Below, in pieces: positions 24,272 through 32,647 of a stretch of 64,000 nucleotides of DNA. Below the pieces are notes generated by a model. The model saw only the letters and a program-made list of their open reading frames with translations, had not been told where the DNA came from and ran no database searches. Position numbers and translations under genes: made by a program. Source of the stretch: Escherichia coli (lineage in GTDB: Bacteria > Pseudomonadota > Gammaproteobacteria > Enterobacterales > Enterobacteriaceae); the NCBI RefSeq assembly GCF_036507355.1, contig NZ_AP027877.1; one strand, 5' to 3'. Position 1 is the first letter of the stretch. Every line of letters begins with the position of its first letter.

Positions 24272-24982
24272 TCAGGGCAGATTTTGCTCCTTCTTTGCAC
24301 TCAACCCGCCGTAATCATTTATCGCCCGCCAGGCAACATGACACGGTGCTATTGCCTGACACCAGCTTGTCTGACGCTGGCTTTTAGGCGGCACAACTCC
24401 CGCATTACTAAACGCTTTACCATTTACGCTCACCTGAATCAGGTTAATGTAGTAAGGCGTTGGGTTAGTGAGTTGTACACCCTGCGAATTCCGTGTCCAG
24501 CGTAATTGTTGATAAGCTTCCAGCGGGTCGCCCGGCAAACCTTCGGGTCGCCAGAACAGTTTAAATACCGAGCGCATCGCCACTTTTACGCTCTGATTTT
24601 CAACTTTGCCGGATGGCACGCTGGCAATGCTTAACTCAAATAGCGTTTCGCGATCCACAGGCAAGATGTCGCTTTCCGTTCTCAGCAAGCGCAACGTGCC
24701 TGTCGTACCGGGCTTCAGGAGAATAAGTGGCGGAGCGGCCAGTAATGGTGCTGGCACTGTCGACGCTTCACCCCCGGCCCAACGCGTTGGGCGGTTGATT
24801 TTACTGTTAATAAGCCAGGATTCCTGACTGGTATTAGTCAGTAAAATAGATATCGATTCTCTGTCTGCCGGAAAGATAAATCGCGTTCCGCCGACCACCA
24901 CTCCTGCCTGCAATTCACCCGCCACCAGCAGCGATAAAACGGCGAAAATCAAGAGCGCCAATCTGTTCCACGTATTAGTCAT
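24272..24982 (-). CDS. ycbF: Fimbrial (PapD-like) periplasmic chaperone YcbF
   Basis: 236 aa from MTNTWNRLALLIFAVLSLLVAGELQA (signal peptide), chaperone motifs; matches YcbF. Confidence 0.88.
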   Translation of the reverse strand: MTNTWNRLALLIFAVLSLLVAGELQAGVVVGGTRFIFPADRESISILLTNTSQESWLINSKINRPTRWAGGEASTVPAPLLAAPPLILLKPGTTGTLRLLRTESDILPVDRETLFELSIASVPSGKVENQSVKVAMRSVFKLFWRPEGLPGDPLEAYQQLRWTRNSQGVQLTNPTPYYINLIQVSVNGKAFSNAGVVPPKSQRQTSWCQAIAPCHVAWRAINDYGGLSAKKEQNLP

Positions 24983-25489
24983 AATGAAGTACAAATGTCG
25001 CGCTGGCATTCACTTTACCCGACTGCACATCGCTATTGACAGGTCGCAATTGCGCATAAAAGTTAATGGCACCTTACCGCTATGTAGGCTGTAGTCTTTA
25101 CTCGCCTGGTTAAGCGGAATCAATATCTTCGCATCATCCAGAATCGCAATTGCCAGCCCGCTGGCTGCATCCGTACCACTTTCAATGGACAACATTTCGC
25201 TCTGCACTCCGTCGGGGGTTCCTGAAAAGGTGACGTCAACCGTGCTGACATCTGTTCCGCAATCCTGCAAATTAATGATGAAAGATTTCTCCGGGCCATA
25301 ATTCCCATGAGAAAAACGTGTCAGTGAGACATCGCCTAACTGCACATTGATTTGCTTGCTATCCTGTGCCAGCACGCATGTATTACGGCGAAACGCTCCG
25401 CTAATGTTGACCGTGCCATCATGGGCAAATAGCTCACAACCCCCCGTTAATCCCAGTAAGAACAGAATCCAGATTATCCGTTTCAACAT
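24975..25489 (-). pseudogene. ycbV: Fimbrial-like subunit YcbV, apparently disrupted by a 1 bp frameshift near the 3' end
   Basis: N-terminal frame (MLKRIIWILFLLGLTGG...) ends early in ...LTFMRNCDLSIAMCSRVK; a second frame continues FYAQLRPVNSDVQSGKVNASATFVLHYD-stop (typical pilin C-terminus); span is 515 nt, one short of 516 nt for the expected 171 aa. Confidence 0.6.
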
Positions 25490-25496
25490 CACTCCT

Positions 25497-26039
25497 TCAC
25501 TGGTAAACCAGATCAAAATAGAGAACCGCCGTCGCATTACCGCCCGTTGCTCCCGCCTTTGTGGACTTATAACGAAGTTGATATTTGAGTGTGTTATCCC
25601 CGGCTTTTAAGGGCGTAAGAGGCTGGACCTGATTGAGCGGGATTTCTTGCTGACTTTGCGCATCAAGAATTTGCACGGCAATCCCCGTTGCCATACCACC
25701 GCTTCCGCCTGTGTCAGTTAGTTTGAGCAGTGTCGGCGCAAGGGTGTCAGCCTCGCCGCTAAAAAGGACGTCCGCGCCAGTAATACCAGCGGCACAACCG
25801 GTGATATCGATATTCAAATCAGCAGCAGTGCTTACGGTATTCGCGGCCTGAAAATCACTGATATTAAAATCGCCAATATGAATATTTTGTAATGCACTTT
25901 TGGTGGTGACATCACAGCCCTGATCGACCACATTCCCATAAATATGCATACTAACTTGTTCAGGCCCAGCCATCCCAACATGGATGTTAAGAATGCTAAA
26001 GAACAAGATAACGCACTGAAATATCGTTTTTTTCTTCAT
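25497..26039 (-). CDS. ycbU: Fimbrial-like subunit YcbU
   Basis: 180 aa MKKKTIFQCVILFFSILNIHVGMA..., ends ...AVLYFDLVYQ (pilin C-terminal motif); matches YcbU. Confidence 0.9.
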   Translation of the reverse strand: MKKKTIFQCVILFFSILNIHVGMAGPEQVSMHIYGNVVDQGCDVTTKSALQNIHIGDFNISDFQAANTVSTAADLNIDITGCAAGITGADVLFSGEADTLAPTLLKLTDTGGSGGMATGIAVQILDAQSQQEIPLNQVQPLTPLKAGDNTLKYQLRYKSTKAGATGGNATAVLYFDLVYQ

Positions 26040-26050
26040 AGGTTCACGCG

Positions 26051-27121
26051 TTAATCAAAATTTATTCTCACCGTTGCCGTGGCTTCAAATCGCCCGGTTT
26101 CTGGTGGTACACCTGTCGTGCTGACTGGATAGACATTCATTCGCGCGATACTGTCTGCATCATCAGGAATAGAGAGCGGTAATGTTCCACCAGCAGGGGA
26201 AATAATGTTGTTCTGGCTATCGGTCACCACCACGCCCACGCCAGGACGTGACGTCTTAATCGCCTGGGGATAGCTGGGGTCTGTGGTTGCCGTCAGACTC
26301 AGGTTGACGTTAACTAACCCCGCGTTTCCCGTGTTACACCTGACTGGAATTGCAAGTTCTGCCGTTCTGGCCCCAAGAGGCTTATGCCCTACAACACGAA
26401 AGTTAGCCGCAAATACGTCGCCCAGATCGACCTCGATTGTTTCTCCGGCATTGACGGAACATGAGCCAAGTGAATTGATCGTACCAGACAGGTAATACAC
26501 TAAAACCGGTGCACCTGTAGTCGTGCAGGAATCACCTGCAGGTATGTTGTAGCATTCAAATAATCGCGCCAGCGCCATAGGAGGAATGACGACCGAGCCA
26601 ACGAACGGCTGCAATATTTTCAGGGAAAAGCTACCGCTATTACCGCTAGCCCCCTGGCCGCCTAAACGTTGACCGCCAGGGTCGCAAATATGCCATCGGG
26701 TATCCCCCCCTGTGCCCACGTTTTCGAAAGGAACCGCAGTAGGAGAACTGCCTTTAACCTGCAATAAAACTTTGGCGGCAAGATAGTCATTAATTTTGTA
26801 CCAGTTGTCGCCTAAATAGACTAACGGTGAATCCGCGGCGAATGCCCATCGACCATTTCTGACATTGTCTTTATCGCAATCACAGGAAACATAATAATCA
26901 TTCGATTCGTTCCACTGATAAAATTTGTCTTTAACTACCCCTGCAGTATTTTCTTCTTCCTCCAGGGTTTTAACGCCAAAATTGACGCCAATATAGGGAT
27001 TCCCCTGAGTGGTATGACACTGCCCGCTATAAGCAGCGGTTTGAGCGCACCATAGCATTAAGACGGCGGCAAAAAATAGTCGTAGTAATGACACGCATTT
27101 TTCTCCAAAGATTATCTGCAT
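26051..27121 (-). CDS. elfG: Fimbrial adhesin-like protein ElfG (YcbT)
   Basis: 356 aa, signal peptide, ends ...TATVRINFD; matches ElfG/YcbT. Confidence 0.88.
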
Positions 27122-31022: not shown

Positions 31023-31125
31023 AAATAGTCACTCTTAAAAAATATGAATATCCCCTCCAGAACACTGGAGGAGTACAAATTAATAAAACAATTAATGAGT
31101 TCTATTAATAGGTAATGACTCCAAC

Positions 31126-31629
31126 TTATTGATAGTGTTTTATGTTCAGATAATGCCCGATGACTTTGTCATGCAGCTCCACCGATTTTGAGAACGACAG
31201 CGACTTCCGTCCCAGCCGTGCCAGGTGCTGCCTCAGATTCAGGTTATGCCGCTCAATTCGCTGCGTATATCGCTTGCTGATTACGTGCAGCTTTCCCTTC
31301 AGGCGGGATTCATACAGCGGCCAGCCATCCGTCATCCATATCACCACGTCAAAGGGTGACAGCAGGCTCATAAGACGCCCCAGCGTCGCCATCGTGCGTT
31401 CACCGAATACGTGCGCAACAACCGTCTTCCGGAGCCTGTCATACGCGTAAAACAGCCAGCGCTGGCGCGATTTAGCCCCGACATAGCCCCACTGTTCGTC
31501 CATTTCCGCGCAGACGATGACGTCACTGCCCGGCTGTATGCGCGAGGTTACCGACTGCGGCCTGAGTTTTTTAAGTGACGTAAAATCGTGTTGAGGCCAA
31601 CGCCCATAATGCGGGCTGTTGCCCGGCAT
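31126..31629 (-). CDS. insB: IS1 InsB
   Basis: 167 aa, about 90% identical to the other copy; A6C motif (revcomp of gtttttt at 31576-31582). Confidence 0.9.
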
Positions 31630-31823
31630 CCAACGCCATTCATGGCCATATCAATGATTTTCTGGTGCGTACCGGGTTGAGAAGCGGTGTAAGTGAACTG
31701 CAGTTGCCATGTTTTACGGCAGTGAGAGCAGAGATAGCGCTGATGTCCGGCGGTGCTTTTGCCGTTACGCACCACCCCGTCAGTAGCTGAACAGGAGGGA
31801 CAGCTGATAGAAACAGAAGCCAC
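31548..31823 (-). CDS. insA: IS1 InsA
   Basis: 91 aa [43 protein letters not shown]... Confidence 0.92.
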
Positions 31824-32072
31824 TGGAGCACCTCAAAAACACCATCATACACTAAATCAGTAAGTTGGCAGCATCACCGAGTAATTCATTGATTCAACAT
31901 CTAATGACTATCCAATAAATAAATATGCGTGATATATAAAGCCCTTTCTTTAGTTTATTTTCAGAAAAAGATACACAAAATTTATATTTGGCATTTTCTT
32001 GTCTCTCCGACAGACTGAGCGAATTGTTATCAATGTTAACAAAACAAGAACAATTGGTTATAAGGAGAGAGT

Positions 32073-32647
32073 ATGCGTGTCATCACCCTGGCGGGTAGTC
32101 CTCGCTTTCCTTCTCGCTCCAGCTCCTTGCTGGAATATGCGCGGGAAAAACTAAATGGCCTGGATGTAGAGGTTTATCACTGGAATCTGCAAAACTTCGC
32201 CGCGGAAGATCTGCTTTATGCTCGTTTCGATAGTCCGGCACTCAATACCTTCACCGAACAGTTGCAACAGGCTGACGGGCTGATTGTCGCCACGCCTGTG
32301 TATAAAGCCGCTTATTCCGGTGCGCTGAAAACCCTGCTCGACCTGCTGCCAGAACGTGCGTTGCAAGGCAAAGTGGTGCTACCGCTGGCGACGGGCGGTA
32401 CGGTGGCCCATCTGCTGGCGGTCGATTATGCCCTTAAGCCAGTTTTAAGTGCGCTGAAAGCCCAGGAGATCCTGCACGGCGTGTTTGCGATGACTCACAA
32501 GTAATTGATTACCATCACAAACCCCAGTTCACGCCGAATTTACAAACCCGTCTTGATACCGCGCTAGAAACTTTCTGGCAGGCATTGCACCGCCGCGATG
32601 TTCAGGTTCCTGATCTTCATTCTCTGCGAGGTAATGCCCATGCGTAA
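32073..32647 (+). pseudogene. ssuE: NADPH-dependent FMN reductase SsuE, apparently frameshifted (truncated at codon 143)
   Basis: Frame from ATG 32073 stops at 32502-32504 (...HGVFAMTHK*); SsuE C-terminus [52 protein letters not shown] continues in the +2 frame to 32645-32647; consistent with a 1 bp deletion near 32485-32495. Confidence 0.7.

What the first reader, a model, noticed from the sequence alone, without database searches (positions are those of the whole stretch)
24272..32647. Local pattern of IS1 insertions and frameshifts suggests a Shigella/EIEC-like, genome-decaying lineage
Within about 8 kb there are four inactivating lesions, all in accessory functions: IS1 in elfC, IS1 with loss of elfA, a ycbV frameshift and an ssuE frameshift. 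Every housekeeping gene in the window appears intact and full length. Multiple IS1 isoforms and loss of adhesin and nutrient-scavenging genes are characteristic of Shigella and enteroinvasive E. coli, and not of commensal E. coli. This is a lineage inference, not a new system.
Basis: inference. Interest (0 to 1): 0.4.

Follow-up and report, generated by a model that had tools for sequence, protein, structure and literature searches.

The report
IS1-eroded fimbrial and sulfonate operons
A small, recently diverged clade of Escherichia coli carries real, inherited IS1 insertions, deletions and frameshifts that have knocked out a cryptic fimbrial operon and the first gene of the sulfonate-sulfur operon. 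Nothing available shows that the clade is Shigella or enteroinvasive E. coli, and the same kinds of lesion occur in ordinary E. coli.

Summary
Against K-12, about 55 genes in the window are intact. The only broken genes lie between 24975 and 32647:
- ycbV has a 1-bp deletion.
- elfA is lost next to a second IS1.
- ssuE has a 1-bp deletion.

The lesions are not assembly errors. At least six other assemblies and read sets that are about 100% identical to the window carry them.

Sister isolates show the steps. One still has elfA, with the second IS1 as a simple insertion flanked by a 9-bp duplication. Another has lost 3.85 kb more and has an extra ssuB frameshift.

The lineage inference is only partly supported. 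Every clade-specific protein is labelled E. coli. None of 5,426 RefSeq complete E. coli genomes shares the IS1 junctions or the ssuE allele. Shigella-labelled comparators are about 98% identical and carry different lesions.

The supposed diagnostic features are not specific:
- Both IS1 isoforms are common in E. coli.
- The elf operon is missing from about 27–33% of complete genomes and is pseudogenised in an O157:H7 strain.
- K-12-lineage strains have IS1 at the same 8-bp elfC site.

This is ordinary IS-driven decay of dispensable operons. Enteroinvasive status is untested.

The parts
24272..24982 (-). ycbF, the second chaperone of the operon. Intact.
   Evidence: Full length with no internal stop and 2 aa differences from K-12.
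24975..25489 (-). ycbV pseudogene. A 1-bp deletion in a T5 run (A4 at 25058-25061 on the + strand) gives a premature stop at 25010-25012 and 159 aa instead of 171.
   Evidence: Alignment to K-12. The same allele is present in clade contigs L007 and L008. The exact 61-mer occurs in 1 of 3,621 RefSeq genomes with a match.
25497..27121 (-). ycbU (25497-26039) and elfG (26051-27121). Both intact.
27112..29269 (-). 3' part of the usher gene elfC (K-12 nt 252-2601). It carries an in-frame 192-bp deletion (64 codons, K-12 nt 1455-1646) between 7-bp repeats, with the junction GTAGCCA at 28060-28066.
   Evidence: Split BLAST alignment with a 7-bp overlap. NCBIfam usher model NF011740 scores 1422 bits in two stretches. 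The deletion is shared by ERR3330519 and absent from the 12 non-clade loci that cover this position.
29270..30037 (-). IS1 copy A, 768 bp, the divergent isoform. It has intact insA and insB' frames and the A6C slippery site. An 8-bp target duplication CAAAATTG lies at 29262-29269 and 30038-30045.
   Evidence: Copies at 99% identity or more occur in 3,868 E. coli records and on Shigella, EIEC and Klebsiella plasmids.
30038..30296 (-). 5' fragment of elfC (K-12 nt 1-259). It reads into IS1 and stops after 87 aa.
30321..31022 (-). elfD chaperone gene. Intact, but now stranded between two IS1 copies.
31105..31110 (-). Last 6 nt of elfA. This is the end point of a 704-bp deletion next to IS1 copy B, which removed elfA, its promoter side of the spacer and one copy of the target duplication.
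   Evidence: K-12 alignment ends at 31110. Sister isolate SRR17480487 retains elfA, with IS1-B flanked by the 9-bp duplication GAGTAATTC.
31111..31878 (-). IS1 copy B, 768 bp, the canonical IS1A/IS1B-like isoform. It is structurally intact and has no target duplication in this genome.
   Evidence: It is 99.1-99.6% identical to copies annotated as IS1B- or IS1A-family in GF66.1, FDAARGOS_943 and 19SZHZ886Rt.
31879..32072 (+). The remaining 194 bp upstream of ssuE, which is what is left of the divergent elfA-ssuE control region.
32073..32647 (+). ssuE pseudogene. A 1-bp deletion (GCC to GC, C at 32488) gives a stop at 32502-32504 and 143 aa instead of 191.
   Evidence: NCBIfam NF007859 covers only profile positions 1-140 of 191. 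The allele is in clade contigs L005, L006 and L038 and in none of 5,336 RefSeq genomes with a match.
32640..36308 (+). ssuA, ssuD, ssuC and ssuB. All intact in this genome. A sister isolate has an extra 1-bp deletion in ssuB.

Best explanation
This is local, stepwise, effectively neutral decay of two adjacent dispensable operons. One is the cryptic chaperone-usher fimbrial operon elfADCG-ycbUVF. The other is the sulfonate-sulfur operon ssuEADCB. It occurs in a small, young clade that every data source labels E. coli.

The mechanisms can be read from the sequence:
1. IS1 copy A transposed into a recurrent 8-bp target in elfC.
2. IS1 copy B transposed into the AT-rich elfA-ssuE spacer, making a 9-bp duplication that a sister isolate still preserves.
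3. IS1-B then generated nested adjacent deletions: 704 bp in this genome, and about 3.85 kb more in a sister isolate.
4. Slippage produced the 192-bp deletion between 7-bp repeats and the two 1-bp deletions.

Once an operon is dead, further hits in it cost nothing. That explains why five events cluster in 7.5 kb while the rest of the window is intact.

Shown: the lesions, their inheritance, the intermediate states and the independence from Shigella-labelled lesions. Inferred: neutrality, the order of the early events, and that the clade is not a specialised invasive pathogen.
For: - Lesion map against K-12, with all other genes intact.
- IS1 structure and target duplications.
- Clade members at 99.97-100% identity carry the derived alleles.
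- SRR17480487 keeps elfA, with IS1-B flanked by GAGTAATTC on both sides. GCA_905398585.1 has the IS1-B end fused to window position 27261 and a new ssuB frameshift. SRR31122001 has an IS1 end inside elfA.
- New lesions in sister isolates fall only in the already-dead operons.
- The same elfC target (nt 252-259) is hit independently, in the opposite orientation and by the other isoform, in K-12-lineage strains 19SZHZ886Rt, GCA_949281885.1, GCA_014528195.1 and ERR10879153.
- Eighteen RefSeq genomes have an IS1 elsewhere within a few hundred bp of the spacer site. The two examined, GF66.1 and FDAARGOS_943, have it in the elfA-ssuE spacer.
- The elf operon is absent from 27-33% of complete genomes, with ssuE next to pyrD in L023-L028.
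- It is pseudogenised in O157:H7 PV15-279 and 21AR0133.
- All clade-specific proteins are labelled E. coli.
- A random-breakpoint model on contig rank and length gives about 57 and 111 fragments for two clade assemblies. About 154 kb around the locus carries no other assembly-breaking repeat.
Against: - Two IS1 copies in 64 kb is unlikely for a median E. coli. The median is 11 IS1-matching places per genome, giving P(2 or more) of about 0.009. It fits an IS1-rich genome better.
- At least four structural states at one locus among isolates that differ by 0-2 SNPs per 10 kb points to brisk IS1 activity.
- The complete source genome (4,643,937 bp) is not in the RefSeq complete set, and the best match over 20 kb is only 99.2%. 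The lineage is therefore unusual and poorly sampled.
- The ssuE allele is absent from every RefSeq complete genome.
- The invasion plasmid, the pathoadaptive deletions and the whole-genome IS and pseudogene counts could not be examined.
- The contiguity model is crude and depends on contigs being numbered by length.
Confidence: 0.6

Rival explanations
1. The clade is a Shigella- or EIEC-like, host-restricted lineage undergoing genome-wide reductive evolution driven by IS1 expansion, and this locus is a sample of that process.
For: - There are two IS1 copies and four or five inactivating events in 8 kb, all in accessory functions.
- IS1-mediated change continues among near-identical isolates.
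- Shigella-labelled genomes independently broke ssuB, ssuC and elfC.
- IS1 is the main expanded IS in Shigella and in EIEC ST6 and ST270, and Shigella lack fimbrial adhesins (PMC7373316).
- EIEC isolates are deposited as 'E. coli', so the species label does not exclude this view.
- The chromosome is small at 4.64 Mb.
- IS load in clade assemblies (about 57-111 fragments) overlaps the low end of EIEC, for example ST99 with a median of 71 IS.
Against: - No shared lesion with, and only about 98% identity to, the Shigella-labelled comparators.
- The best match among RefSeq complete E. coli genomes, a set that includes at least one EIEC chromosome (CFSAN029787), is 99.2% over 20 kb.
- All nine Escherichia-labelled mxi-spa plasmids listed from PLSDB (ten are counted) carry CP accessions, none a DDBJ accession.
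- The other 56 kb of the window, including many non-essential genes, has no pseudogene.
- About 154 kb around the locus has no other assembly-breaking repeat. P(2 or fewer IS) is about 0.02 at 5 IS per 100 kb and about 7e-5 at the S. dysenteriae Sd197 density of 9.26 per 100 kb.
- Each supposedly diagnostic feature also occurs in non-invasive E. coli.
Confidence: 0.2
2. The 'clade' is one widely distributed reference or laboratory strain, or a strain kept for long periods in storage. Its copies, held in different laboratories, have accumulated IS1 transpositions and adjacent deletions during storage and passage.
For: - Members come from unrelated submitters and archives: DDBJ, ENA assemblies, NCBI third-party assemblies, and SRR and ERR runs.
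- They are almost SNP-free (0-2 differences per 10 kb) yet differ by IS1 events.
- K-12-lineage genomes, one of them from human faeces, show the same elfC::IS1 target being hit.
- IS movement in stored cultures is established knowledge (own knowledge, not tested here).
Against: - No metadata were obtained for any clade member.
- Literature searches for the accessions found nothing.
- The sequence matches no RefSeq complete genome, including the common laboratory and reference strains seen in the searches.
Confidence: 0.1
3. The frameshifts and IS junctions are sequencing or assembly artefacts.
For: - The ycbV change lies in a homopolymer.
- Many public contigs with the same ycbV T4 allele are error-laden assemblies in which pyrD, rlmL and uup are also broken.
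Against: - Contigs from independent data sets are identical across both frameshifts and end exactly at the IS1 borders.
- No other gene in 64 kb is disrupted.
Confidence: 0.01

Closest known systems
IS-driven reductive evolution of Shigella and EIEC (Hawkey et al. 2020, PMC7373316)
   Same: - IS1 is the agent.
- The targets are accessory adhesin and nutrient-scavenging genes.
- Lesions differ between close relatives.
- The same operons (ssu and elf) are independently broken in Shigella-labelled genomes.
   Different: - There is no evidence of pINV.
- The species label is E. coli.
- There is no shared lesion and no close relationship to the comparators.
- Local IS density and assembly contiguity lie well below Shigella values.
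- The rest of the window has no pseudogenes.
IS1 transposition and IS1-mediated adjacent deletion (classical IS1 biology; own knowledge)
   Same: - The elements are 768 bp with terminal inverted repeats, insA/insB' frames and an A6C frameshift site.
- Target duplications are 8 bp (copy A) and 9 bp (copy B, seen in a sister isolate).
- Deletions start exactly at one IS end and extend to different distances in different isolates.
   Different: Nothing unusual was found. Both isoforms are common, at 99% identity or more in thousands of records.
Cryptic or decayed chaperone-usher fimbrial operons in ordinary E. coli (the elf/ycb operon)
   Same: - O157:H7 PV15-279 has frameshifted ycbF and elfC.
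- Strain 21AR0133 has the same ycbV frameshift.
- K-12-lineage 19SZHZ886Rt has elfC::IS1 at the same 8-bp site.
- About 27-33% of complete genomes lack the operon.
   Different: Four separate events have accumulated in one operon here, and the major subunit gene elfA has been lost.
ssuEADCB alkanesulfonate utilisation operon
   Same: Gene order is the same, and ssuA, ssuD, ssuC and ssuB are intact.
   Different: - ssuE lacks its C-terminal quarter.
- An IS1 sits 194 bp upstream of ssuE.
- The ssuE allele is absent from all 5,336 RefSeq genomes with a match.

Membership tests
IS1 family insertion sequence | About 768 bp with imperfect terminal inverted repeats of about 23 bp (GGTAATG.../GGTGATG...) | tested here: met
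   Both copies are 768 bp and both ends were read directly.
IS1 family insertion sequence | insA and insB' frames joined by -1 frameshifting at A6C, with a match to the IS1 transposase profile | tested here: met
   A6C lies at nt 307 in both copies and insA is 91 aa. NF033558 scores 147.9 and 145.6 bits on the InsB' frames against a cut-off of 100. The InsA frames match profile positions 1-81.
IS1 family insertion sequence | Target-site duplication of 8-9 bp | tested here: met
   Copy A has CAAAATTG on both sides. Copy B has none in the window because of the adjacent deletion, but has GAGTAATTC on both sides in SRR17480487.
Shigella / EIEC pathovar | pINV invasion plasmid (mxi-spa, ipa, ipaH) | not testable with these tools
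   The plasmid is outside a chromosomal window. As an indirect check, PLSDB holds 113 mxi-spa plasmids, 10 of them labelled Escherichia. The nine that were listed all carry CP accessions, none a DDBJ accession. This is weak negative evidence only.
Shigella / EIEC pathovar | Genome-wide IS expansion (EIEC medians 71-164, Shigella about 190-350 copies; PMC7373316) | tested here: inconclusive
   The contig rank/length model gives about 57 and 111 fragments in two clade assemblies. There are 2 or fewer IS in about 154 kb around the locus. This is incompatible with Shigella levels. It is compatible with ordinary E. coli or with EIEC that carry few IS.
Shigella / EIEC pathovar | Membership of a recognised Shigella or EIEC phylogenetic cluster, or lesions shared with one | tested here: not met
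   The Shigella-labelled loci L031-L033 are 97.9-98.8% identical and carry different ssuB, ssuC and elfC lesions. No RefSeq E. coli genome exceeds 99.2% over 20 kb. Only a few Shigella lineages could be reached with these tools.
Shigella / EIEC pathovar | Pathoadaptive losses (cadA, nadA/nadB, speG, ompT) | not testable with these tools
   These loci lie outside the window, and the complete genome was not retrievable.
elfADCG-ycbUVF chaperone-usher fimbrial operon | Seven genes in K-12 order between ssuE and pyrD, including an usher that matches the specific NCBIfam model | tested here: met
   Synteny with K-12. The usher remnant scores 1422 bits on NF011740 against a cut-off of 995. The operon is present only as a degraded remnant: elfA is lost, elfC is split and internally deleted, and ycbV is frameshifted.
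ssuEADCB operon | A full-length SsuE FMN reductase (191 aa) upstream of ssuADCB | tested here: not met
   SsuE stops at 143 aa and covers only profile positions 1-140 of 191 in NF007859. ssuADCB are intact.

The most novel reading that the evidence does not exclude
The clade is an unrecognised, recently emerged E. coli lineage at an early stage of Shigella-like, IS1-driven niche restriction. It may or may not carry an invasion plasmid. It has so far been deposited only as 'E. coli', and the elf-ssu locus is its first visible casualty.
Probability: 0.15. Interest if true: 0.4.

Novelty: already known. Interest (0 to 1): 0.15.

Why it matters
The finding has little wider importance. It is a clean, well-documented example of how IS1 insertion, IS1-adjacent deletion and slippage take apart dispensable operons step by step, with the intermediate stages preserved in sister isolates.

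It also gives a practical caution. IS1 in elfC, loss of elf genes and the presence of two IS1 isoforms are not markers of Shigella or EIEC. The elfC site CAAAATTG (nt 252-259) and the elfA-ssuE spacer are recurrent IS1 landing sites in ordinary E. coli, including K-12-lineage strains.

If the whole genome did turn out to be IS-expanded or to carry pINV, the clade would be a useful early-stage model of Shigella-like evolution.

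Tried and rejected
Naming the strain:
- Full-text searches for the accessions, locus-tag prefix, run numbers, genome size, possible strain names and an ECOR link found nothing relevant.
- Exact look-up of the 159-aa YcbV found no indexed gene.
- The >1 Mb contig that carries the clade-specific YcbZ is indexed but was collapsed among 'similar places'.
- RefSeq locus tags of Japanese genomes gave no batch clue.

EIEC comparator: I first took FDAARGOS_943 (intact elf and ssu, IS5 plus IS1 in the spacer) for an EIEC because its accession is adjacent to a pINV plasmid. 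One search showed that the plasmid belongs to FDAARGOS_944, so FDAARGOS_943 is used only as an ordinary E. coli example.

ycbV T4 as a shared Shigella marker: rejected. The many other contigs with this allele are mostly error-laden assemblies or unrelated lineages about 98.4% identical to the window.

Exact PepN and SsuD protein matches as signs of relatedness: rejected. Those genomes are only 97-99% identical at the DNA level.

The 192-bp elfC deletion as a common polymorphism: cannot settle this, because only eight top rows were shown and all were undeleted. All 12 non-clade loci that cover the position lack the deletion.

Faulty calls:
- Six minus-strand proteins were given with wrong coordinates. 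They were repeated correctly.
- Searches were input errors.

Full report
**What the window is.**
The 64-kb window is collinear with E. coli K-12 MG1655 from rlmI to ycaI (about 965-1030 kb), in reverse orientation. The finding covers ycbF to ssuE. That span holds the chaperone-usher fimbrial operon elfADCG-ycbUVF and the start of the divergently transcribed sulfonate operon ssuEADCB.

**Checking the observation.**
I extracted every K-12 gene and aligned it to the window. All of about 55 genes outside the finding have the K-12 length and no internal stop. The only exceptions are in-frame loop indels in ompA and ompF. A base-by-base indel list shows no other coding indel.

Inside the finding there are five lesions, not four:
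- **ycbV** has lost one T of a T5 run (A4 at 25058-25061 on the + strand). It ends after 159 aa instead of 171.
- **elfC** has an in-frame 192-bp deletion between 7-bp repeats, with the junction at 28060-28066.
- **elfC** is split after nt 259 by a 768-bp IS1 (29270-30037) flanked by the 8-bp duplication CAAAATTG.
- **A second IS1** (31111-31878) has no duplication. On its left it abuts the last 6 nt of elfA.
- **ssuE** has lost one C (GCC to GC at 32488). It ends after 143 aa instead of 191.

Both IS1 copies are structurally complete, with inverted repeats, a 91-aa insA frame, A6C at nt 307 and matches to NF033558. They are 91.0% identical to each other. Placing five events uniformly in 64 kb would put them all in one 7.5-kb span about once in a thousand trials.

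**Are the lesions real?**
Yes. Exact-protein look-ups found contigs from other data sets that are 99.97-100% identical to the window and carry the same alleles:
- GCA_905398585.1, SRR17480487 and ERR3330519
- GCA_044688185.1
- GCA_021425525.1
- SRR31122001

Their contigs stop exactly at the IS1 borders, as short-read assemblies do. A table of derived and ancestral alleles across 18 loci shows the derived states only in this clade. The exception is the ycbV homopolymer change, which recurs elsewhere. Many of those other occurrences are in assemblies where pyrD, rlmL and uup are also broken, which points to sequencing error. One occurrence is annotated as 'frameshifted' in RefSeq strain 21AR0133.

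**Mechanism, read from sister isolates.**
- In SRR17480487, a 1,834-bp contig still carries elfA. There IS1-B is a simple insertion with GAGTAATTC on both sides, whereas K-12 has one copy of that sequence.
- The window genome has therefore since lost 704 bp from the left end of IS1-B. This is an IS1-adjacent deletion.
- In GCA_905398585.1 the same IS1-B end is fused to window position 27261. A further 3.85 kb is gone, including elfD, IS1-A and most of elfC. That isolate also has a new 1-bp deletion in ssuB.
- In SRR31122001 an IS1 end lies inside elfA.
- These isolates differ from the window by 0-2 substitutions per 10 kb.

The erosion is therefore recent and continuing. Every new lesion falls in an operon that was already dead. 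That pattern is what relaxed selection after a first inactivating hit would produce. The neutrality itself is inferred.

**Where the window comes from.**
The truncated YcbV and SsuE, and also YcbZ, MukB, KdsB, ZapC, PqiB, SsuA and SsuD, match GenBank proteins BED22996-BED23037. One of these carries locus tag VEE46_27850. They sit on a 4,643,937-bp contig labelled Escherichia coli. Clade-specific variants occur on only 3-12 contigs, and all are labelled E. coli.

The genome is not among the 5,426 RefSeq complete E. coli genomes. The best match is 98.4% over the 13-kb locus and 99.2% over 20 kb of housekeeping genes. I could not name the strain or obtain metadata.

**Testing the Shigella/EIEC inference.**

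*For the inference:*
- Shigella-labelled genomes reached through a PepN variant have frameshifts in ssuB, ssuC and elfC.
- IS1 is the main expanded IS in Shigella and in EIEC ST6 and ST270 (PMC7373316).
- Two IS1 copies in 64 kb are unlikely in a median genome, with P of about 0.009 at 11 copies.

*Against the inference:*
- Those Shigella-labelled genomes are only about 98% identical to the window and their lesions are different.
- The elfC::IS1 junction and the IS1-B junction are in no RefSeq E. coli genome. The ssuE allele is in none of the 5,336 genomes with a match.
- PLSDB holds 113 mxi-spa plasmids, 10 of them labelled Escherichia. The nine that were listed all carry CP accessions, so none is a DDBJ record that could belong to this strain. 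This is weak evidence only.
- In GCA_905398585.1, contig 19 is 92 kb and contig 27 is 62 kb, and both end at this locus. In GCA_044688185.1, contig 18 is 77 kb and contig 50 is 34 kb.
- A random-breakpoint model on those contigs gives about 57 and 111 fragments, with implied genome sizes of 4.8 and 4.7 Mb. At 300 breakpoints fewer than one contig of 92 kb or more is expected. With 2 or fewer IS in 154 kb, P is about 0.02 at Shigella density. This model is rough.

**The diagnostic premises fail.**
- IS1-A has copies at 99% identity or more in 3,868 E. coli records and on Shigella, EIEC and Klebsiella plasmids.
- IS1-B is the ordinary IS1A/IS1B type.
- Only 3,978 of 5,426 genomes cover 80% or more of the locus, and only 3,621 match ycbV. 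In elf-less genomes ssuE sits next to pyrD.
- O157:H7 PV15-279 has frameshifted ycbF and elfC.
- Eighteen RefSeq genomes have an IS1 elsewhere within a few hundred bp of the spacer site. GF66.1 has an IS1 in the elfA-ssuE spacer, and FDAARGOS_943 has an IS5-family element plus an IS1 there.
- Most telling, K-12-lineage genomes that are 99.93-99.98% identical to MG1655 carry an IS1 at exactly the same elfC target CAAAATTG. It is in the opposite orientation and of the other isoform. These genomes are 19SZHZ886Rt (from human faeces), GCA_949281885.1, GCA_014528195.1 and ERR10879153.

**Verdict.**
The 'Shigella/EIEC-like' part is not shown, and the evidence available leans against Shigella-grade decay. 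An EIEC with a modest IS load is not excluded. The phenomenon is ordinary IS1 biology acting on dispensable operons, so novelty is low and interest is low.

Noticed in passing
window 29262-29269 / 30038-30045; L051 10260-10425, L052, L053, L056 6101-6868: elfC nt 252-259 (CAAAATTG) is a recurrent IS1 target. K-12-lineage genomes that are 99.93-99.98% identical to MG1655 carry an independent IS1 there, in the opposite orientation and of the canonical isoform. One of them is RefSeq strain 19SZHZ886Rt from human faeces.
   Followed up: yes
L051 10260-10425 (GCA_949281885.1): At the same elfC site this assembly shows only about 166 bp made of the two IS1 ends. This is either an internally deleted mini-IS1 or an assembler collapse through the repeat.
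   Followed up: no
window 10630-12390 (ycbZ, + strand): ycbZ has 10 amino-acid replacements among 22 nucleotide differences from K-12. That is a much higher replacement fraction than in neighbouring genes. The exact protein occurs on only 5 contigs, so selection on this Lon-like protease gene may be relaxed.
   Followed up: no
window 8864-9916 (ompA) and 42603-43676 (ompF): ompA is a 350-aa allele with a net 12-nt insertion relative to K-12. It is identical to a common allele seen on 868 contigs. ompF is a divergent 357-aa allele, 90.6% identical to K-12 at the DNA level. Both are in frame.
   Followed up: partly
window 25007-25012: The premature ycbV stop (25010-25012) lies immediately next to the ATG (25009) of the longer 245-aa ycbF reading frame that PGAP annotates in other genomes. 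The frameshift may therefore alter translational coupling into ycbF.
   Followed up: no
L023-L028 (for example GCA_019141265.1), locus positions 16316-18138: Some E. coli lineages lack the whole elf/ycb operon, with ssuE followed by pyrD after a 236-bp spacer. They share the window's exact PepN protein but are only about 97.3% identical at the DNA level.
   Followed up: partly
L009-L012, L015: Several megabase-scale public assemblies that carry the ycbV T4 allele also have pyrD, rlmL, uup and pqiA broken into pieces. This is typical of uncorrected long-read homopolymer errors. Exact-protein matches to frameshift products therefore need checking.
   Followed up: partly
L031-L033 (GCA_014398405.1, SRR7401701, SRR4181518): Genomes labelled Shigella boydii or S. 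dysenteriae have independent 1-bp deletions in ssuB and a split elfC (606 + 260 aa) and ssuC. The ssuB deletion lies 7 bp from the one in GCA_905398585.1. This is convergent decay of the same two operons.
   Followed up: yes
L002 11345-12112; L029 10422-12099: The AT-rich elfA-ssuE spacer collects insertion sequences in unrelated E. coli. GF66.1 has an IS1 122 bp closer to ssuE than the window's IS1-B, and FDAARGOS_943 has an IS5-family element plus an IS1. In 18 RefSeq genomes an IS1 end and the spacer sequence lie within a few hundred bp of each other.
   Followed up: partly
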